NCBI GenBank assembly: GCA_965235115.1
Contig: OZ249436.1
Location: forward strand, 4,032,001-4,096,000
Origin: Laetmonice hystrix
Lineage: Eukaryota
Length of the DNA stretch: 64,000 bases
Reading direction: 5' to 3'
Part shown: piece by piece, positions 8,166-61,002 of the stretch
How positions within the stretch are numbered: position 1 is the stretch's first letter
How the letters are laid out: the number at the start of each line of letters is the position of its first letter
Notes under the pieces: model-generated
The model's input: the letters and a program-made list of their open reading frames with translations, nothing else
Told to the model about the DNA's origin: nothing
Databases searched by the model: none
Made by a program: the position numbers and the translations under genes

Positions 8166-8737
8166 TCATTGCAGGACACACTTGGTACCCCCGTCAGCCC
8201 CTCTCCGACTCTCACTGTCGGTCGTACCATCCGGGTGTTTCGTCTGCAGGATGAGGAGATCGGTACGAATGCTGGGCCGGCGAGTGTTGGGAGCCACGGC
8301 TCCGCACGCGTCACTGAGCCGGCGACGGATGGTAACACCCCGGCGGAAGCTGCCGCTACCTCCGCCCTGGGCGCCACCCACGTAGGTCGGCTGGACTTTA
8401 CGGTGTAATGACGGGCTCATCTCGGTTGGCAGTTGCGCCAACATGAAGAGTTTCAAGAAGATCTCCTCGATGTTGATATTTCTCTTGGCTGATGTTTCCA
8501 CGGCTCCGCAGCTGGGGAGGCCCTCGACCAGAGCCTTCAGCTCGTCAGTACCTATCACACGTTCTGCCTCCTTATCGCATTTATTGCCCACAAGTACCAT
8601 GGGGACACGCGGCCGTTTCTGAGCCTGACCCTGATCCGGACTCTGCCCCTTCGATTCCCAGACCTGAGACTGTAGACGCTTCACCTCCTCGAAACTCTCG
8701 CGATTATCGATGCTGTAGACCAGGATAAAGAGGTCGC
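8166..8737 (-). CDS. RASD: RASD/Rhes/Dexras1-like small GTPase, coding exon 2 (terminal)
   Basis: Acceptor TTTCTCTCTGCAG|GC (AG at 8739-8738) completes G|GC = Gly, then DLFILVYSIDNRESFEEV...LVGNKCD (G4)...ETSAK (G5)...LPTEMSPSLHRKV...ACGAVAPNTRRPSIRTDL...KCVLQ*. CAAX box present; stop TGA at 8168-8166. Joined CDS is 861 nt = 286 aa. Confidence 0.95.
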
Positions 8738-8961
8738 CTGCAGAGAGAAAGCACAGGGCATGAGGTCGGGATCTCTCCCGAGCACAGTCAACATCAAACA
8801 CATCTATAGTTGAAAAGGTCGACCGGAAACAGACAGCTACTATCAAGCAAACCGATAAATCCATAGGTAGAATCGTTGTTAGATTTGTTCTGTGGATTTG
8901 TTGTCTCTGGGTCCCCTCCCCCGAAGGCTTTTCTGTCGATCCGACTCTCTTGTTGAGTTCA

Positions 8962-9977
8962 CCGGATACATATTACATTAGTACACATGGGATCATTGAA
9001 AGTGTCTCCAATTACTGGTCTGTGTATCATGCATGCTTCACGTATCAAGATACATATTACATTAGTACACATGGGATCATTGAAAGTGTCTCCAATTACT
9101 GGTCTGTGTATCATGCATGGCTACACGTATCAGGACACATATTACATTAGTACACATGGGATCATTGAAAGTGTCTCCAATTACTGGTCTGTGTATCATG
9201 CATGCTTCACGTATCAAGATACATATTACGTTAGTACACATGGGATCATTGAAAGTGTCTCCAATTGCTGGTCTGTGTATCATGCCTGGCTTCACGTATC
9301 AGGACACATATTACATTAGTACACATGGGATCATTGAAAGTGTCTCCAATTACTGGTCTGTGTATCATGCCTGGCTTCACGTATCAGGATACATATTACA
9401 TTAGTACACATGGGATCATTGAAAGTGTCTCCAATTACTGGTCTGTGTATCATGCATGCTTCACATATCAGGACACATATTACATTAGTACACATGGGAT
9501 CATTGAAAGTGTCTTCAATTACTGGTCTGTGTATCATGCATGCTTCACGTATCAGGACACATATTACATTAGTACACATGGGATCATTGAAAGGGTCTCC
9601 AATTACTGGTCTGTGTATCATGCCTGGCTTCACGTATCAGGATACATATTACATTAGTACACATGGGATCATTGAAAGTGTCTCAAATTACTGGTCTGTG
9701 TATCATGCATGGCTTCACGTATCAGGATACATATTACATTAGTACACATGGGATCATTGAAAGTGTCTCCAATTACTGGTCTGTGTATCATGCCTGGCTT
9801 CACGTATCAGGATACACATTACATTAGTACACATGGGATCATTGAAAGTGTCTCCAATTACTGGTCTGTGTATCATGCATGCTTCACGTATCAGGATATT
9901 ACATTAGTACACATGGGATCATTGAAAGTGTCTCCAATTACTGGTCTGTGTATCATGCATGGCTTCACGTATCAGGA
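8962..9977. repeat. ~84-85-bp tandem repeat, ~12 copies
   Basis: Unit GGATACATATTACATTAGTACACATGGGATCATTGAAAGTGTCTCCAATTACTGGTCTGTGTATCATGCATGGCTTCACGTATCA. Confidence 0.96.
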
Positions 9978-51861: not shown

Positions 51862-52823
51862 TTAACTACATTAAGATGAGGAGAAACGGCCTAATTAATC
51901 TGTCTATCTGGGCCCTGTAACATTTTGGCATGCTATCGATATCGTATTCATCATAATAGCTGTTTAAACAGTAGGTCATGATACACTAATATGACATATT
52001 GTACATCACAAGGTCCAAATTTACGCTTTTTGAAGGGTCATTGTACACCATGTTGAAAACAGGGTAGGCAGGTCTGGCGAGATGACTGCAAGGGTCGTTA
52101 AAACAAAAACAAACAAAAAACAAAAAAAAAAAACAAAAAAAAAAAAAAGATTGTTCAAATTCCAACCACCTGTTTGAGCTTCCTGTGTAGAAAGGGTTAG
52201 GAAGGCGGGGCTATTTCCGCTCGGAAGTAAAAGATGTTTTCGTATGCAATCAAGATTACCCAGTCCTGGCTTAAGCCGATCGTAAGTGCCATTAAATGTC
52301 TGTTAGTGTTTTCTCATTAGCCGTTTGACAGTGCTGTCGTCTTCTGGGACTGTTGGATGACATAAAAACGCAACTCATACGGAGGCCATTTTTTGTCGGT
52401 GGTTCGTACGCATGCGGCCTGGAATCGTGATCGACATGGCATGAACAATTAATCCCGGCTCACTCTCGAATCTTGGAGTGTCAGGGTATAGTTCTTGGAG
52501 TGTTGGGATAGTTATTGATGTCGTTGTGTAAAATGTGTGTTTGGCGTGCTGTTAATAATGTTTAGGCTCGCAATTTATAAAATTTGGCATCGGCAAAATA
52601 AAGGTAGGAGGCATGTAAATGTATTTTCAACTTTTTCGTTTCATTTTGAACGAAACGGGATCATCCCAACCGGGTCTGCGCCGGGGCGCCGTGCATAGTA
52701 GTGGTAGTATAGACTGTAAGTGAGAGAGAGGAGGGAGAGGGAGATAGAGAGAGAGACAGGGAGAGAGAGAAAAAGAGAGATATGGGGGAGGGCGAGGGAG
52801 AAAAGAAAAAAGAAAAAAAAAAG

Positions 52824-52828
52824 AAAAA
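52824..52828 (-). terminator. Pol III oligo-T terminator, copy A
   Basis: TTTTT directly after the 3' strand of the closing stem, followed by further T runs. Confidence 0.6.
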
Positions 52829-53199
52829 GTGAACTTGGTCTTAGTCGACTGGATACGTTCATCCTACCGTTCGAAGATCTGGCGTCTGAGACAACACGTG
52901 ATAACCCAATGATAGCCGCCATACGGAACTGTGCCACAGATCGACCCACTGACGGGGAACGGGTTGTATTGCTACATCCCTTTAGAAGAGTCATGTCGCA
53001 CTTTTCTCAGGCTTGCACCCTCCCGCCTCCAAGTGGACACTAAGTGACTCATCATACTGTCAGTGTTTGAACCATCAGCACGTGTTGCCAGACTACGACC
53101 GAACGTGGACCCATGCAAGCTCCTTCCGACCCATCAGCCAGTTCATGGGAGACAGACCCGAGTCTATCTAAGCGATACTTTCAGACGTGACCGTTCACT
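52824..53199 (-). ncRNA. Putative Pol III-transcribed structured ncRNA, unknown family, copy A (~376 nt)
   Basis: Starts AGUGAAC 34 nt after the start of TATATAAAGC and ends GUUCAC-UUUUU (5'/3' closing stem plus T5). Core 52866-53109 is homologous to 60350-60602, with identical blocks of 33, 22, 17 and 14 nt. Confidence 0.75.
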
Positions 53200-53223
53200 G
53201 TACATGTGCCAAGTGGTTTCGTG

Positions 53224-53267
53224 GCTTTATATAGTGGGGAGGTCAAGCTGGACCTCAAGAGTGGTGT
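53224..53267 (-). promoter_or_regulatory. Type-3 (U6-like) Pol III promoter of copy A: PSE-like box plus TATA
   Basis: ACACCACTCTTGAGGTCC (53267-53250), 16-bp spacer, TATATAAAGC (53233-53224). Geometry matches copy B. Confidence 0.65.
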
Positions 53268-54177
53268 CCCACTCAACCACATTGTTTTAATAAGATAAAA
53301 ACATTTTACAGGCGACAACCAAAGCCTTGGAGGTGTAGATCCTGTCTGGAGCATTAAAAATGGGGTGGCGATCCAGTTATTTCGTGCAAGTTGATTTTAT
53401 TAAAATATATTAATAAAAATGATAAAATCAGGGCAACATGGACAATGAGGCACGTGACACCGACGTTCTGTATACGACAGTCGTCACCAAGCGTCAAGAT
53501 CCACATAGTTGCAGTCATTTATATACAAATTATGGTCTCACCTCCAAAACCAATTGCCTACATGGCTGTATTTTAGTGGGTTCTTTATCACCAAGCAATA
53601 TAAGTGAACACCGACTTAAACATCAGAAGGTTTCCCAGGTAGAACATATCTCACATTAATCAAGACACCATTTCTAACGTCCTGTCTGTCCAAATTAAGT
53701 CAAGGTGCTACAACCAAGCATGTCTGGCGGGGTCATACTGTCTACAGGTAAAAGTGTTGACTGTAACTGAATGACTGACGTACTGAGTCACTGGCGTGAG
53801 GTGTGACAAACAAACCTGGACAATGAAAACCACTACTTGGTATTTATAGCACAAGAATTTATTAGAGGAGTGCGTATACTGGCATATCTTTCACCTACTC
53901 TATGTACCACCAAAATCTTGCTTACGTTTGAAATACAGTAATTGAATAAATTATGCCTGATGGTTAATTATTAATCATTTGATTATTGTTTGGTCATGAA
54001 GGAGTAAAAGTTTTAATAGCAACTGATGCAATGTCTGCCCCTGACTTCATGGATCTGCAGCTATATCCGTAAACCATCTCATTTCTGCCATGCTGTCTTT
54101 TTTTTTCTTAGTCAAAGAAAAAGAAATCAATTCCACTCAAGTAATCCTTTGAGACTATGAGATTACGCGTATCGGCA

Positions 54178-54586: not shown

Positions 54587-55114
54587 AATTGTATGCATTT
54601 ATTCTAGAGTCAGAAGTCTAGAGTAGACCTACTACGTCTCAGGATTAATGTCCATGTCTTTCTGGGAGCTGAGCCCTTCGCAGGTAGGCTACCATCGATC
54701 CCGGCCTTCATTGGATCTAATTTCTGAAAACGTTTCTCGGTTCCCTGTGCCGCCGATAGGAGGCGACTGGTCTGTGTGATGATTTGACGGGTCTCTGTGG
54801 TCTGACACGCTGTGAATGGGTCACGTGGGGTTACCCTCGCCCGTCTCAGAACAAGAAAATCAACCATGTGGTTAGCAAGATGACCACCAGATGGCGCGCA
54901 GGACTTGGCGAACCTTTAAAGAGAACAGACGCCTCGATATAGACCTCCCATTGGATAGATCATAACGAACAATCGTTTTAAACTAACCAATGAGGGAGCC
55001 ACATAATAAACGTTTTGTATCATTCCATCGCCTGCCAATTCCTTTCGTTTTCAAATACAAAACATGCAAAACATCTAAATATGTAAACTGTTCATACTCA
55101 TTCACCCCCTGGTG

Positions 55115-58100
55115 TATGCATCCACCCATTCATCCACCCATCCACCAACCCAGCAATCCACCCACCCACCAACCCAGCAGTCCACCCACCCACCAACCGA
55201 GCAGTCCACCCATCCACCCACCAACCCAGCAGTCCACCCACCCATCCACCAACCCAGCAGTCCACCCACCCACCCACCAACCCAGCAGTCCACCCATCCA
55301 CCCACCAACCCAGCAGTCCACCCACCCACCCACCAACCGAGCAGTCCACCCACCCACCCACCAACCCAGCAGTCCACCCACCCACCCACCAACCCACCAA
55401 TCCACCCACCCATCCACCAACCCAGCAGTCCACCCACCAACCCAGCAGTCCACCCACCCACCAACCCAGCAGTCCACCCACCCACCAACCCAGCAGTCCA
55501 CCCACCCACCCACCAACCCAGCAGTCCACCCACCCACCCACCAACCCAGCAGTCCACCCACCCACCCACCAACCCAGCAGTCCACTCACCCACCCACCAA
55601 CCCAGCAGTCCACCCACCCACCCACCAACCCAGCAGTCCACCCACCCACCCACCAACCCAGCAGTCCACCCACCCACCCACCAGTCCACCCACCCACCCA
55701 CCCACCCACCAGTCCACCCACCAACCCACCAACCCAGCAGTCCACCCACCCACCCACCAACCCAGCAGTCCACCCACCCATCCACCAACCCAGCAGTCCA
55801 CCCACCCACCCACCAACCCAGCAGTCCACCCACCCACCCACCAACCCAGCAGTCCACCCATCCACCAATCCAGCAATCCACCCATCCACCCACCAACCCA
55901 GCAGTCCATCCACCCATCCACCAACCCAGCAGTCCACCCACCAACCCAGCAGTCCACCCACCCACCAACCCAGCAGTCCACCCATCCACCCACCAACCCA
56001 GCAGTCCATCCACCCATCCACCAACCCAGCAATCCACCCACCCACCCACCAACCCAGCAGTCCACCCATCCACCAACCCAGCAATCCACCCATCCACCCA
56101 CCAACCCAGCAGTCCATCCACCCATCCACCAACCCAGCAATCCACCCACCCACCCACCAACCCAGCAGTCCACCCACCCACCAACCCAGCAGTCCACCCA
56201 TCCACCAACCCAGCAATCCACCCATCCACCCACCAACCCAGCAGTCCATCCACCCATCCACCAACCCAGCAATCCACCCACCCACCCACCAACCCAGCAG
56301 TCCACCCACCCACCCACCAACCCAGCAATCCACCCACCCACCCACCAACCCAGCAGTCCACTCACCCACCCACCAACCCAGCAGTCCACCCACCCACCCA
56401 CCAACCCAGCAATCCACCCACCCACCCACCAACCCAGCAGTCCACCCACCCACCCACCAACCCAGCAGTCCACCCACCCATCCACCAACCCAGCAGTCCA
56501 CCCATCCACCAACCCAGCAATCCACCCACCCACCAACCCAGCAATCCATCCACCCACCCACCAACCCAGCAGTCCACCCACCCACCAACCCAGCAATCCA
56601 TCCACCCACCCACCAACCCAGCAATCCACCCACCCACCAACCCAGCAATCCATCCACCCACCCACCAACCCAGCAATCCACCCATCCACCAACCCAGCAA
56701 TCCACCCACCCACCAACCTAGCAGTCCACCCACCAACCAACCCAGCAATCCACCCACCCATCCACCAACCCAGCAATCCACCCACCCATCCACCAACCCA
56801 GCAGTCCACTCACCCACCAACCCAGCAATCCACCCACCCACCCACCAACCCAGCAATCCACCCACCCACCCACCAACCCAGCAGTCCACCCACCAACCCA
56901 GCAGTCCACCCACCAACCCAGCAGTCCACCCACCCATCCACCAACCCAGCAATCCACCCACCCACCCACCAACCCAGCAGTCCACCCACCCACCAACCCA
57001 GCAGTCCACCCACCCACCCACCAACCCAGCAGTCCACCCACCCACCCACCAACCCAGCAGTCCACTCACCCACCCACCAACCCAGCAGTCCACTCACCCA
57101 CCCACCAACCCAGCAGTCCACTCACCCACCCACCAACCCAGCAGTCCACCCACCCACCCACCAACCCAGCAGTTCACCCACCCACCCACCAACCCAGCAG
57201 TCCACCCACCCACCCACCAACCCAGCAGTCCACCCACCCACCCACCAACCCAGCAATCCACCCACCCACCAACCCAGCAGTCCACCCACCCACCCACCAA
57301 CCCAGCAGTCCACCCACCCACCCAACAGTCCACCCACCCACCCATCAACCCAGCAGTCCACCCACCCACCCACCAACCCAGCAGTCCACCCACCCACCAA
57401 CCCAGCAGTCCACCCACCCACCCACCAACCCAGCAGTCCACCCACCCATCCACCAACCCAGCAGTCCACCCACCCACCAACCCAGCAGTCCACCCACCCA
57501 CCAACCCAGCAATCCACCCACCCACCCACCAACCCAGCAGTCCACCCATCCACCAACCCAGCAGTCCACTCACCCATCCACCAACCCAGCAATCCACCCA
57601 CCCACCCACCAACCCAGCAATCCACCCACCCACCAACCCAGCAATCCACCCACCAACCCACCAACCCAGCAGTCCACCCATCCACCAACCCAGCAGTCCA
57701 CCCACCCATCCACCAACCCAGCAGTCCACCCACCCACCAACCCAGCAGTCCACCCACCCACCAACCCAGCAGTCCACCCACCCACCAACCCAGCAGTCCA
57801 CCCACCCACCAACCCAGCAGTCCACCCATCCACCAACCCAGCAGTCCACCCATCCACCAACCCAGCAGTCCACCCACCCACCCACCAACCCAGCAGTCCA
57901 CCCACCCACCAACCCAGCAGTCCACCCACCCACCAACCCAGCAGTCCACCCACCCACCAACCCAGCAATCCACCCACCCACCAACCCAGCAATCCACCCA
58001 CCCACCCACCAACCCAGCAATCCACCCACCCACCCACCAACCCAGCAGTCCACCCATCCACCAACCCAGCAGTCCACTCACCCATCCACCAACCCAGCAA

Positions 58101-58806
58101 TCCACCCACCCACCCACCAACCCAGCAATCCACCCACCCACCAACCCAGCAATCCACCCACCAACCCACCAACCCAGCAGTCCACCCACCCACCCACCAA
58201 CCCAGCAGTCCACCCACCCACCAACCCAGCAGTCCACCCACCCACCAACCCAGCAGTCCACCCACCCACCAACCCAGCAGTCCACTCACCCATCCACCAA
58301 CCCAGCAATCCACCCACCCACCCACCAACCCAGCAGTCCACCCACCCACCAACCCAGCAGTCCACCCACCCACCAACCCAGCAGTCCACCCACCCACCAA
58401 CCCAGCAGTCCACCCACCCACCAACCCAGCAGTCCACCCACCCACCAACCCAGCAGTCCACCCACCAACCAACCCAGCAATCCATCCACCCACCCACCAA
58501 CCCAGCAGTCCACCCACCCACCAACCCAGCAGTCCACCCACCCACCAACCCAGCAGTCCACCCACCCACCCACCAACCCAGCAGTCCACTCACCCACCAA
58601 CCCAGCAGTCCACCCACCCACCAACCCAGCAGTCCACCCACCCACCAACCCAGCAGTCCACTCACCCACCAACCCAGCAGTCCACCCACCCACCAACCCG
58701 GCAGTCCACCAACCCAGCAGTCCACCCACCAACCCAACAGACCACCCACCCACCCACCCACCCACCCACCCACCCACCCACCCACCAACCCAGCAGTCCA
58801 CCCACC
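55115..58806. repeat. ~3.7-kb CCAC-based minisatellite (20-28-bp units)
   Basis: Unit (CCAC)n-CAACCCAGCARTCCA. Confidence 0.98.
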
Positions 58807-58828
58807 CTGTCGGAAGTGTAGAACTTAC

Positions 58829-58973
58829 CCCCGTCGCCGGCCAACTGACAGGTCCGTTCCAGGTGACCTCCCGAGTCCCGCTGTTCGGCGGACAGGTGCG
58901 GACAGAACCGGCGCCTTGCCGCGGTCTGAGCCGCATGGAATGACAGCTGTTGGATCTGCATGGGGTCCAGTTT
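58829..58973 (-). other. Candidate internal exon of an unidentified gene
   Basis: GC-rich 145 bp between GTCTTCGTCAG| and |GTAAGT; open in all three frames. No homology recognised. Confidence 0.3.
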
Positions 58974-59007
58974 CTGACGAAGACGTACACAAGAAACAGT
59001 CATGTCT

Positions 59008-59195
59008 CGGGGGCGGATCCAGGAATTTTTTTATTTGGGGGGGGGGGGCACGGGTGTATGGGTGGATAAATGGATCCATAGCTACCTGACATGGGCAAGG
59101 GTCACTCAGTATTGGGGGACCAGAACCCTGCTTTTTCAAAATTTCGGGGGGGGGGGGGGCAGGGCCCCCTGAGCCCCCCCCTAAATCCGCCACTG
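59008..59195. mobile_element. hAT-like MITE with probable 5-bp TSD
   Basis: CGGGGGCGGAT ... ATCCGCCACTG; flanks TGTCT / TGTAT. Confidence 0.65.
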
Positions 59196-59524: not shown

Positions 59525-59700
59525 CAGGGCCGTAGCCTGCCCAAAAATCCCAGGGGGGCAGTGTCCTATGAACAATAACCAGATAGGCCTAACGCGTGAT
59601 AGCGCGTCATTGCGCCGGTCGAGCTGGGAGTCTGGGTTACAAAAAATGGAAATCCCAGGGGGCAGTTGCCCCCCCCCCCCCCCGCAGGCTACGGCCACAT
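59525..59700. mobile_element. hAT-like MITE
   Basis: TIR GGCCGTAGCCTG / CAGGCTACGGCC. Confidence 0.6.
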
Positions 59701-60014
59701 GTGATAGTTCGACACCAGGGAATGTAGGGAAATGAACTTCTCTTTCAATTTCTTTTGGGTGGGAGAGTATGTACCCGACCCTGTAGCATGGCGTTGCAGC
59801 TCTGGTGGTTGCAGGTATTTCACTGCGCCCATACTTTCCTAAAATCAACTTTCACACCTGATGGCTAAATATACGTATAGATCCACATAGGCCTGCTCGA
59901 TGTTTCATGCAGGCAAAGGCTACTGACATTTCTTCACACGTCAGTGAGTCGCAAAACAACAGACCCAAACAATAGAGCGTCTAATAATAGTCTGTCCCTG
60001 CGACTGGCACTCTT

Positions 60015-60022
60015 ATTTGCAT
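60015..60022. promoter_or_regulatory. Octamer motif (possible distal sequence element) upstream of ncRNA copy B
   Basis: ATTTGCAT ~310 bp upstream of the inferred +1. No equivalent seen for copy A. Confidence 0.35.
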
Positions 60023-60260
60023 ATCAAATAGGTATCAAGACATGCTCACGTGATTAGAGAGGGCGCTCACGTCGCAATTTTGCTGGGTAGTTTTCAAAAT
60101 ACACAAATGTATCTGTTTATGTTCACTAAAACAAATTTTACAGACGTAAAATATCTATCAAAATTTGCTTTTAATCTTTACCTAAGACCTGTAGTAGTTG
60201 AATACTTCTAATTTTGCCGGAACTCTGTTTTTATCCTAGCATAACGTTGAGTGTATGTGC

Positions 60261-60304
60261 ACACCCTTTCTGTGGTCCTCGACCTGGAGGGGGATATATA
60301 AAGC
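60261..60304 (+). promoter_or_regulatory. Type-3 (U6-like) Pol III promoter of copy B: PSE-like box plus TATA
   Basis: ACACCCTTTCTGTGGTCC (60261-60278, 13/18 identical to the copy A box), 16-bp spacer, TATATAAAGC (60295-60304). Confidence 0.65.
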
Positions 60305-60327
60305 AATTACCACCACTGTAGTAATGT

Positions 60328-60643
60328 AGGGAACAGCGAGGCGCCGGTCTCCACGTTCGGTCGTAGTCTGGAAACAGACGCTGTTGAAAACCTGACAGTA
60401 CGAAGAGTTCGGCTCGGTTGGTATGTGTCCACTTGGAGAGGTGAGGGTGTAACTCGGCGATAAGTGTGACACAACTCTTCTAAAGGGATGTAGCAATACA
60501 ACCCGTACCCCGTCAATGGGCTCAATCTGCGGCAAGGTTCCAAATCAGTTGACTCTCAATGGGCTATCGTGTGTTCTCCAGACGACAGATCTTCGAACGG
60601 TATAGGACTTGGACCAAGTCTCAAGGATCAGTTCCCCTTTTTT
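60328..60643 (+). ncRNA. Putative Pol III-transcribed structured ncRNA, unknown family, copy B (~316 nt)
   Basis: Starts AGGGAAC 33 nt after the start of TATATAAAGC (60295) and ends GUUCCCC-UUUUUU (closing stem plus T6). Same core as copy A, with compensatory changes. Confidence 0.75.
60638..60643 (+). terminator. Pol III oligo-T terminator, copy B
   Basis: TTTTTT directly after GTTCCCC. Confidence 0.65.
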
Positions 60644-61002
60644 AGTACTCTGAATTTTTAGTTACTCTCAGCTCGATACAAATGATAATAAAAAGTGTCC
60701 TGAGACACTCTTGTCCCAGAACTTGATTCCTCCGTGATCATCCCAGGTGCAATCGGTCGCTGGAATAACTCGCAATACATTACACAGTATTTTGACCCAA
60801 GCTTCTGAGTCCCGATTCTCTGTGGCAGTCTAAGCATAAATCAAGTATACTATATAACTGGAAAACTATCGTGAGATATATCGTATCGTTTGTTGTATCG
60901 TGATACGTATCGTATCGTGGCACAAGTGTTTCGTTTCGAAATCTGCACGGCTAAATAATACGGACTCCCACGTCTTTCTCGACCATTACCTGAGAACTTT
61001 AA

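What the first reader, a model, noticed from the sequence alone, without database searches (positions are those of the whole stretch)
60350..60602. Co-varying multi-helix core with a GNRA hairpin and a candidate pseudoknot
Seen on the transcribed strand (A vs B): outer helix CGUUCG/CGAACG in both. Long helix GUCUGGCAACACGUG/CACGUGUUGUCUCAGAC vs GUCUGGAAACAGACG/CGUGUGUUCUCCAGAC. CACUGAC/GUCAGUG vs UGAC/GUCA. GAGUCA/UGACUC vs GAAGAGUU/AACUCUUC (compensatory). UGUCCACUU/AAGUGYGACA in both. Invariant hairpin GGGAUGUA-GCAA-UACAACCC, whose GNRA loop exists only on the strand predicted from the promoter. RAUCUG inside the long helix can pair with CAGAUC just outside it, forming a crossing helix. Inference: selection acts on a tertiary fold, as expected for a ribozyme or RNP scaffold. 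Function unknown.
Basis: partly seen in the sequence, partly recalled or inferred. Interest (0 to 1): 0.8.

Follow-up and report, generated by a model that had tools for sequence, protein, structure and literature searches.

The report
Thousand-copy Pol III structured RNA gene
The flagged stretch is the conserved core of a roughly 315-375-base structured RNA gene with a 7SK-type promoter, present about a thousand times in this animal genome and matching no catalogued RNA family, so it is probably an undescribed abundant non-coding RNA of unknown function.

Summary
The helices exist, and most are supported by compensatory changes. The pseudoknot and one long-range helix are not supported.

1. 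Copy number. The two "copies" belong to two subfamilies of a repeat. Its invariant GCAA hairpin occurs 1069 times in this 627 Mb metazoan genome.

2. Promoter. Each copy has an ACACC-type proximal element at -68 and a TATA box at -34. The genome's own 7SK, RNase MRP and RNase P genes have the same geometry. A T-run follows directly on a stem that pairs the RNA's 5' and 3' ends.

3. Constraint. In a positional sample, private substitutions are 2.4 times rarer in the transcribed block than in the upstream flank.

Rfam gives no match. Canonical 7SK, SRP, MRP, RNase P and vault RNA genes lie elsewhere in the genome.

Best reading: a lineage-specific, high-copy Pol III (type 3) gene family for a 315-375 nt structured RNA, probably an abundant RNP scaffold. 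The main rival is a selfishly amplified DNA unit that carries such a gene.

Expression could not be tested. Nothing supports a ribozyme.

The parts
60329..60643 (+). Predicted transcript of copy B (about 315 nt). It runs from the first base of the terminal stem (GGGAAC) to the end of the T-run.
   Evidence: The 5' end lies 34 nt after the start of the TATA box, as in the genome's 7SK, MRP and RNase P genes. The T6 run is at 60638-60643.
60350..60602 (+). Conserved core shared with copy A (the finding's coordinates). It holds the outer helix, the long rod and three arms including the GCAA hairpin.
   Evidence: BLAST block of 258 nt at 77.5% identity. Consensus structure and pair counts.
60485..60504 (+). 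Invariant hairpin GGGAUGUA-GCAA-UACAACCC (copy B).
   Evidence: 37 of 37 copies. 1069 places in the genome with at most 2 mismatches; the reversed control pattern gives 0.
60295..60303 (+). TATA box TATATAAAG of copy B.
   Evidence: TATAWA sits at -34, the same position as upstream of the genome's own 7SK, MRP and RNase P genes.
60255..60275 (+). PSE-like element of copy B (ACACC at -68).
   Evidence: ACACC lies at -65 to -69 upstream of the genome's 7SK, MRP and RNase P (two copies) genes, and at -68 in both A and B.
60329..60334 (+). 5' strand of the terminal stem of copy B (GGGAAC). It pairs with GUUCCC at 60631-60636.
   Evidence: Compensatory against A (U-A in 27 copies, G-C in 7, pair 14/398).
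60631..60643 (+). 3' strand of the terminal stem (GUUCCC), followed by C and the T6 terminator (copy B).
59525..60937 (+). Repeat unit of family B as it is shared with other B loci (about 1.4 kb).
   Evidence: BLAST of L001 against L002-L010, conservation profile and boundary print-out.
52824..53199 (-). Predicted transcript of copy A (about 375 nt). It has an extra 5' domain of about 68 nt with two hairpins, the same core, a 3' hairpin, the terminal stem GUGAAC/GUUCAC and a T-run.
   Evidence: The block of lowest diversity in family A coincides with these limits.
52961..52980 (-). Invariant GCAA hairpin (copy A).
53225..53233 (-). TATA box TATATAAAG of copy A.
53255..53275 (-). PSE-like element of copy A (GGGACACCACT; ACACC at -68).
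52520..54100 (-). Repeat unit of family A as it is shared with other A loci (about 1.6 kb).

Best explanation
The finding is the conserved core of a gene for a structured non-coding RNA of about 315 nt (family B) or 375 nt (family A). The gene has an external, 7SK-type (type 3) RNA polymerase III promoter, and this metazoan genome holds roughly 1000 copies, both dispersed and in short tandem arrays.

Proposed mechanism: Pol III initiates about 34 nt after the TATA box and stops at the T-run. The first 6-7 nt pair with the last 6-7 nt before the oligo-U tail. A closed end of this kind stabilises small Pol III RNAs and leaves a La-type 3' tail. The body folds into an irregular rod (outer helix plus long helix) that opens into a multi-branch core with three arms: one with a purine-rich apical loop, the invariant GCAA-capped hairpin, and a third arm. 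The RNA most likely serves as an abundant protein-binding scaffold (RNP).

Shown here: the promoter geometry, the terminator, the copy number, the compensatory pairs, the strand, and the lower substitution rate in the transcribed block.

Inferred: transcription itself, the polymerase, the RNA ends, protein binding and any cellular role.
For: Copy number and families:
- The 20-nt hairpin occurs at 1069 places with at most 2 mismatches; the control gives 0.
- A second gapped pattern occurs at 963 places. The first 100 listed fall into type A, a one-T-shorter variant of A, type B, and rare single mutants.
- The 40 best matches are 97-100% identical for B and all 100% for A.

Promoter:
- A and B share ACACC at -68 and TATAWA at -34.
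- The genome's 7SK, RNase MRP and two RNase P genes have ACACC at -65 to -69 and TATAWA at -33 or -34.
- By my reading, the first TTTT follows within 0-2 nt of the terminal-stem 3' strand, or a one-base variant of it, in 35 of 39 copies.

Structure:
- 82 pairs, with 98.2% of cells paired (0 of 500 shuffles reach this; 34-44% when partners are slid).
- 9 pairs show changes on both sides. Two pairs show three states: G-C 15 / C-G 15 / A-U 7, and G-C 25 / G-U 7 / A-U 5.
- A against B alone gives 9 double changes, against 3.5 +/- 1.7 in shuffles.

Strand: 98.2% paired on this strand against 89.6% on the other (282 G-U cells against 29 A-C cells).

Constraint, in 28 full-length A copies from a positional sample:
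- Diversity is 0.033 in the gene, 0.062 in the promoter and 0.078 upstream.
- Private substitutions are 69 per 377 sites in the gene and 259 per 581 sites upstream (Fisher p = 1.6e-17).

Not a known RNA:
- No Rfam hit.
- Canonical 7SK, SRP, MRP, RNase P and vault candidates lie elsewhere.
- No sequence similarity to the genome's own 7SK, MRP, RNase P or SRP genes.

Precedent: mouse 4.5SH has 700-800 Pol III genes in 4-5 kb tandem units, and paired ends lengthen the lifetime of small Pol III RNAs (PMC3440375, passages read).
Against: - There is no evidence of expression.
- Covariation rests on about 2-4 lineages within one genome. No homologue from another species was found. The only metagenome hit to the 20-mer is unrelated outside it.
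- Single-sequence folding energies are unremarkable (z = -1.4 and -1.5).
- Within the gene, private variants do not clearly avoid paired sites. There are 61 distinct variants on 229 unpaired sites. On 148 paired sites there are 36, of which 24 break the pair.
- Constraint is only 2.4-fold, so many copies may be decaying.
- My first diversity profile overstated the contrast, because truncated copies were misaligned. The high downstream diversity (0.27) lies in a low-complexity pyrimidine tract and is unreliable.
- The sample was chosen by the 20-mer and comes from one chromosome.
- Gene haplotypes track flank lineages, as in transposon subfamilies.
Confidence: 0.6

Rival explanations
1. The object is a selfishly or neutrally amplified DNA unit: a mobile element, rolling-circle product or segmental repeat of 1.4-4 kb that happens to carry a Pol III gene. 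On this reading the thousand copies reflect DNA amplification rather than a need for the RNA, and only a few master copies, or none, matter to the host.
For: - Copies fall into subfamilies whose gene haplotypes track their flank lineages, with star-like private mutations of about 1-2% per copy.
- A and B were each amplified together with their own 0.8-1 kb of unrelated upstream DNA.
- Tandem arrays have several different periods, about 2.1, 3.1, 4.3-4.4 and 4.8-5.6 kb.
- Truncated copies exist: 5 of the 40 sampled are clearly partial.
- The left edge of the B unit is sharp at four independent loci.
Against: - Private substitutions are 2.4 times rarer in the transcribed block than upstream. Neutral decay of a repeat does not predict this.
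- Changes fixed between subfamilies are compensatory.
- The unit's edges are not constant in family A, and I saw no terminal repeats or target duplications.
- No protein-coding capacity was noticed.
- This rival overlaps with the best explanation: a selfish spread could still carry a functional RNA.
Confidence: 0.25
2. The RNA is a ribozyme (self-cleaving or ligating) whose tertiary fold includes the proposed pseudoknot.
For: A compact multi-helix core, an invariant GNRA tetraloop and several invariant joining strands.
Against: - No hit to any ribozyme family in Rfam at gathering scores or up to E = 10.
- The pseudoknot has no compensatory change. Its one change in B is compensated in a competing nested helix instead.
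- A GNRA loop and invariant joints are equally typical of protein-bound RNAs.
Confidence: 0.05
3. It is a very divergent member of a known Pol III or snRNA family (7SK, RNase P/MRP, SRP, Y, vault, telomerase RNA) that the models fail to recognise.
For: - Same promoter type as 7SK, MRP and RNase P.
- Size in the range of 7SK, SRP and RNase P RNAs.
- No Y RNA was detected in this genome, although that search was uninformative because its control found nothing anywhere.
Against: - Canonical 7SK (58 bits), SRP (266 bits, at least 25 copies), MRP (99.7 bits), RNase P (144 bits, 2 copies) and 2 vault candidates are all found elsewhere in the genome.
- No similarity to those genes.
- No Rfam hit.
- About a thousand copies and 315-375 nt do not fit Y, vault or telomerase RNA (typical sizes and copy numbers recalled, not tested).
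Confidence: 0.03
4. There is no functional RNA. The helices are leftovers of repeat history, and the promoter-like motifs are inert.
For: No expression data. Few independent lineages. Weak single-sequence z-scores.
Against: - Identical PSE/TATA/start geometry to four bona fide genes.
- Compensatory changes, including three-state pairs.
- Reduced private substitutions in exactly the promoter-to-terminator block.
- Strand asymmetry of G-U pairs.
Confidence: 0.07

Closest known systems
7SK, RNase MRP and RNase P (H1) RNA genes, the type 3 (external PSE + TATA) Pol III gene class
   Same: ACACC-type PSE at about -68, TATA at -34 and a T-run terminator. The geometry is identical to this genome's own 7SK, MRP and RNase P genes. 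The size of about 300 nt is also similar.
   Different: No sequence or covariance-model similarity. Those genes are present in 1-2 copies, against about 1000 here. The fold is different.
Mouse 4.5SH RNA genes
   Same: A lineage-restricted Pol III RNA encoded by hundreds of genes (700-800), each within a 4-5 kb tandem unit (PMC3440375, passages read). Here there are arrays with 2-5 kb periods and hundreds of near-identical genes.
   Different: 4.5SH is about 94 nt, derives from a SINE, has an internal promoter and lacks paired ends (same paper). This RNA is 315-375 nt, has an external promoter and paired ends, and is also widely dispersed. No abundant repeat shares its 5' domain: 734 candidates, about the number of A genes.
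Y RNAs and vault RNAs
   Same: Pol III RNAs whose 5' and 3' ends form a stem followed by oligo-U (recalled; Y RNAs are named as such in PMC3440375).
   Different: They are about 70-140 nt and low-copy as genes (recalled). No Rfam match here, and vault candidates exist elsewhere.
SINEs and Pol III retropseudogene families
   Same: High copy number and Pol III-type transcription units.
   Different: Copies share 0.8-1 kb of upstream DNA, including the external promoter, and end in a T-run rather than an A-tail. They were therefore duplicated as DNA, not retroposed.

Membership tests
Type 3 (snRNA-type) RNA polymerase III genes | Proximal sequence element about 55-70 nt upstream of the start. | tested here: met
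   ACACC core at -68 in A and B. It lies at -65 to -69 in the genome's own 7SK, MRP and two RNase P genes.
Type 3 (snRNA-type) RNA polymerase III genes | TATA box about 25-35 nt upstream of the start. | tested here: met
   TATATAAAG at -34 in A and B, and -33 or -34 in the four reference genes. The start in A and B is inferred from this spacing and from the terminal stem. It was not measured.
Type 3 (snRNA-type) RNA polymerase III genes | Run of four or more T as terminator at the RNA's 3' end. | tested here: met
   T6 at 60638-60643 and T5 at 52828-52824. By my reading, 35 of 39 sampled copies have this.
Type 3 (snRNA-type) RNA polymerase III genes | Actual transcription by Pol III. | not testable with these tools
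   No RNA run was listed for this sequence.
7SK RNA (RF00100) | Match to the covariance model (5' hairpin with GAUC motifs, 3' hairpin). | tested here: not met
   No hit up to E = 10. A canonical 7SK lies at C7:18450595 (58.3 bits).
RNase P / RNase MRP RNA (RF00009, RF00030) | Match to the models (the P4 pseudoknot and conserved regions CR-I/CR-V; these names are recalled). | tested here: not met
   No hit. Canonical genes lie elsewhere.
SRP RNA (RF00017) | Match to the model (Alu and S domains). | tested here: not met
   No hit. At least 25 canonical genes lie elsewhere.
Known self-cleaving ribozymes (Rfam families) | Match to any ribozyme model. | tested here: not met
   No Rfam match at gathering scores in the window or in 18 related loci. 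The 4 weak matches up to E = 10 around the copies are not ribozyme families.
SINE / retroposed Pol III transcript | Copies share only the transcribed part, with an internal promoter, an A-rich or simple-repeat tail and unrelated flanks. | tested here: not met
   Upstream flanks are homologous over 0.8-1 kb within each family, the promoter is external, and the 3' end is a T-run.
DNA transposon / Helitron-type mobile unit | Constant termini, terminal repeats or hairpins, and target-site duplications. | tested here: inconclusive
   The left edge of the B unit is sharp at four loci. The edges of A units vary between sub-lineages, and no terminal repeats were seen. No systematic search for target duplications was made.

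The most novel reading that the evidence does not exclude
This is an undescribed class of abundant animal RNP RNA: a Pol III type 3 transcript of 315-375 nt with its own conserved fold, kept intact by selection at hundreds of loci in two ancient subfamilies. It would then rank among the most highly encoded non-ribosomal, non-tRNA RNAs known in an animal. Its role would probably need very high dosage, for example storage in eggs or embryos or genome-wide regulation in the manner of 4.5SH.
Probability: 0.3. Interest if true: 0.75.

Novelty: new variant of a known kind. Interest (0 to 1): 0.6.

Why it matters
Animals have a short, well-known list of Pol III type 3 transcripts: U6, 7SK, RNase P/MRP, Y, vault and a few others. 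A further structured RNA of about 300 nt, with the same promoter but a thousand gene copies and no match to any catalogued family, would add a new member to that list. It would also raise the question of what needs so much of it. If the family instead turns out to be mainly selfish, it would show a Pol III gene spreading as DNA while its RNA fold stays under selection. Either way the object is easy to test, with a single Northern blot or a total-RNA library.

Tried and rejected
- **Rfam.** At gathering scores there was no match in the window or in 18 related loci. At E up to 10 around B and A there were only chance-level hits: snoR111 and mir-1791 downstream of B, and ceN69 and ROSE_3 in A. 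The ceN69 hit rests on an AUGAUGA box that is present in A but not in B.
- **Public runs.** No RNA holder was listed. The four listed holders come from one sample and one study. Read laying was not used, because contigs cannot show expression.
- **Metagenome scan with the 20-mer.** It gave one hit (L023), which is unrelated outside the 20-mer. No homologue from another organism was obtained, so no cross-species covariation test was possible.
- **Earlier findings of the scan.** Nothing by place or by sequence. A search by words failed on its argument.
- **First diversity profile.** It overstated the gene/flank contrast because truncated copies were included. It is superseded.
- **5' domain of A as a module derived from a more abundant repeat (the 4.5SH model).** Rejected: 734 candidates, about the number of A genes.
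- **Similarity to the genome's own 7SK, MRP, RNase P or SRP genes.** None beyond 8-11-nt words.
- **Y RNA search in the genome.** No hit, but the control found nothing anywhere, so the result is uninformative.
- **Literature.** Three full-text searches found no description of such a family. The organism's name is not known to me, so a species-specific paper could have been missed.

Full report
**What is at the coordinates.** BLAST of the two predicted genes against the window finds exactly these two copies. It delimits the shared block as 258 nt at 77.5% identity, 60350-60602 against 53109-52865. Outside this block the two loci share only short promoter motifs upstream and a T-run downstream.

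**The family is high-copy.** The window lies in a 627 Mb assembly of 35 contigs.
- A DNA search with copy B gave 1582 first-look candidates. The 40 that were scored are 97-100% identical.
- Copy A gave 1311 candidates, and all 40 scored are 100% identical.
- The invariant 20-nt hairpin occurs at 1069 places with at most 2 mismatches. The reversed control pattern occurs at 0.
- A second, gapped pattern across the most variable part of the rod occurs at 963 places. The first 100 listed fall into type A, a variant of A that is one T shorter, type B, and a few single mutants.

Copies are dispersed over many contigs. They also sit in short tandem arrays with periods of about 2.1, 3.1, 4.3-4.4 and 4.8-5.6 kb. 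Within each family the similarity extends over 1.4-1.6 kb: for B, window 59525-60937; for A, 54100-52520. The flanks of A and B are unrelated to each other.

**Not a known RNA.**
- Rfam gives no match at gathering scores in the window or in 18 related loci.
- Up to E = 10 around either copy there are only chance-level hits.
- The genome is metazoan and carries canonical genes elsewhere: 7SK (58.3 bits), Metazoa_SRP (266 bits, at least 25 copies, mostly in tandem), RNase MRP (99.7 bits), RNase P (two copies, about 144 bits) and two vault RNA candidates.
- A Y RNA search found nothing, but its control was silent too, so it is uninformative.
- A and B share no more than 8-11-nt words with the genome's 7SK, MRP, RNase P and SRP genes.

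**Promoter, start and end.** I compared the upstream regions with those of the genome's own type 3 genes.
- 7SK, MRP and both RNase P genes have an ACACC core at -65 to -69 and TATAWA at -33 or -34 from the 5' end of the Rfam match.
- A and B have ACACC at -68 and TATATAAAG at -34 when the start is placed at the first base of a terminal stem.
- The SRP genes lack this arrangement.

This puts the starts at 60329 (GGGAAC...) and 53199 (A-GUGAAC...). The last bases before the T-runs are GUUCCC (60631-60636) and GUUCAC (52834-52829). The 5' and 3' ends therefore pair, with a compensatory U-A (27 copies) against G-C (7 copies) difference.

By my reading of the list, the first TTTT follows the 3' strand of this stem, or a one-base variant of it, in 35 of 39 copies. 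The predicted RNAs are about 315 nt (B) and 375 nt (A). A has an extra 5' domain of about 68 nt with two hairpins. The starts and ends are inferred, not measured.

**Structure.** Single-sequence folding energies are not exceptional (z = -1.4 and -1.5).

For A against B alone, RNAalifold gives 74 pairs, 9 of them with changes on both sides. Column shuffles give 3.5 +/- 1.7 such pairs, and 3 of 200 reach 9. The energy z-score is -3.0.

I then fetched 40 copies taken in positional order along contig 1 from the 20-mer list. I aligned 37 full-length genes: the two window copies, 6 B and 29 A. I dropped four truncated copies (L030, L053, L054, L058) and L063, which a position filter in my script missed.

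On this alignment the nested structure plus terminal stem has 82 pairs:
- 98.2% of cells are paired, against 95.8 +/- 0.2 in shuffles (0 of 500 reach it) and 34-44% with partners slid by 1-3 columns.
- The covariation score is 0.094, against 0.051 in shuffles (0 of 500).
- 9 pairs have changes on both sides.

Family A itself holds sub-lineages that add events. The apical stem of arm I shows G-C (15), C-G (15) and A-U (7). One pair of the UGUCCACUU/AAGUGYGACA helix shows G-C (25), G-U (7) and A-U (5).

Caveats: the structure was derived from these sequences, and there are only about 2-4 independent lineages.

- The outer helix, the long helix, the GAGUCA/UGACUC helix, the UGUCCACUU helix and the GCAA hairpin all hold.
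- The CACUGAC/GUCAGUG pairing and the RAUCUG/CAGAUC pseudoknot show no change on both sides, and they lose 2 pairs and 1 pair respectively in B.
- The G-to-A change in B that breaks the pseudoknot in 7 of 7 B copies is compensated by C-to-U in a nested helix, where G-C becomes A-U in 7 of 7. The pseudoknot also overlaps three pairs of the outer rod.
- The window's B copy carries private changes (GUCAAUG, GACGACAG) that the other B copies lack.

**Strand.** The same pairs are 98.2% standard on the promoter-predicted strand and 89.6% on the opposite strand (282 G-U cells against 29 A-C cells). The GCAA loop would read UUGC on the other strand.

**Constraint.** My first profile overstated the contrast between gene and flanks, because truncated copies were misaligned.

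With 28 full-length A copies, diversity is as follows:
- 0.078 upstream (-940 to -360 from the hairpin);
- 0.062 in the proximal promoter;
- 0.033 in the transcribed block.

The value of 0.27 downstream lies in a low-complexity pyrimidine tract and is not reliable.

Private substitutions number 69 on 377 gene sites and 259 on 581 upstream sites (Fisher p = 1.6e-17). Sites with shared variants make up 5.3% against 17.2% (p = 1.4e-8). The sample was chosen by 20 of the 377 gene positions, which is a small bias.

Inside the gene, private variants do not clearly avoid paired sites, and 24 of 36 distinct variants at paired sites break the pair. Many copies may therefore be decaying. Gene haplotypes follow the lineages defined by the upstream flanks (Spearman 0.29, p = 6e-9). 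Copies thus arose by duplication of whole units from a few source lineages, not by conversion of the gene alone.

**How the copies spread.** They were duplicated as DNA, because the external promoter and 0.8-1 kb of upstream sequence travel with the gene. This excludes a SINE or a retropseudogene family.
- The left edge of the B unit is sharp at four loci and begins with a 13-nt inverted repeat pair (59528-59540 and 59684-59696).
- The A units extend to different points in different sub-lineages. I saw no terminal repeats or target duplications.
- The A-specific 5' domain is not part of a more abundant repeat (734 candidates).

I cannot say what mechanism amplifies the units.

**Interpretation.** The best-supported reading is a lineage-specific, high-copy gene family for a Pol III type 3 transcript with a conserved fold. 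The fold has a closed terminal stem with an oligo-U tail and a long irregular rod. The rod opens into a multi-branch core with three arms, one of them the invariant GCAA hairpin.

A stem between the two ends lengthens the lifetime of small Pol III RNAs. Hundreds of tandemly repeated genes for one lineage-specific Pol III RNA are known for mouse 4.5SH, with 700-800 genes in 4-5 kb units (PMC3440375, passages read). I therefore propose an abundant RNP scaffold, with confidence 0.6.

The main rival, at 0.25, is a selfishly amplified DNA unit whose cargo is such a gene. The two readings are not exclusive. A ribozyme, a divergent known RNA and "no RNA at all" are each unlikely, for the reasons given under the rival explanations.

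**Novelty and limits.** Three full-text searches found no description of such a family. I do not know the species, so a species-specific report could exist.

Expression could not be examined, because no RNA run is listed for this sequence. No homologue from another organism was available. The decisive steps are a Northern blot or total-RNA library, and a covariance-model search of related genomes.

Noticed in passing
window 60015-60022, within 59890-60060: An octamer-like ATTTGCAT lies about 310 nt upstream of the predicted B start. It sits inside a block that is about 100% conserved among the closest B copies. It may be a distal enhancer element of the snRNA type. No octamer was seen in the part of A's upstream region that I read (53230-53500).
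   Followed up: partly
window 59528-59540 and 59684-59696: A 13-nt inverted repeat (GGCCGTAGCCTGC / GCAGGCTACGGCC) encloses about 145 nt with internal direct repeats and C/G runs, exactly at the left edge of the B repeat unit. It looks like a small MITE-like insertion or a terminus.
   Followed up: no
window 1 to at least 1200: A long array of a C-rich repeat of about 32 bp (ctcagaccttacactaacccttccaccccgtc) with strong negative GC skew. The skew extends to about 4000 in the composition profile.
   Followed up: no
window about 60990 to beyond 61300: A tandem array of a 25-bp unit (cacatctcatgacattctcaaagtt) starts near the point where the window's B unit stops matching the other B loci.
   Followed up: no
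window 54990-59090: A GC-rich (0.59-0.64), strongly strand-skewed low-complexity block that is open in several frames on both strands, with ORFs up to 1336 aa. It is probably a repeat-coded or simple-sequence region. It lies between copies A and B.
   Followed up: no
window 8166-8972 (-): An open frame with a Ras-family match (PF00071, E = 1.2e-16, profile positions 59-157), probably an exon of a small GTPase gene.
   Followed up: no
G000 C12:24.03-24.15 Mb and C10:15.07-15.10 Mb: SRP (7SL) RNA genes are present in at least 25 copies, mostly in tandem arrays with a period of about 2.2 kb. This genome therefore also amplifies a canonical Pol III gene.
   Followed up: no
G000 C7:18450595-18450893 (L024): The single canonical 7SK gene scores only 58 bits on RF00100, and RNase MRP is short (203 nt). 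Both fit a non-vertebrate animal.
   Followed up: no
window 53036-53061 (-): Copy A, but not B, contains AUGAUGA (a box C-like word) in the strand GACAGUAUGAUGAGUCACU. This produced a chance-level C/D snoRNA hit (ceN69, E = 3.6).
   Followed up: partly
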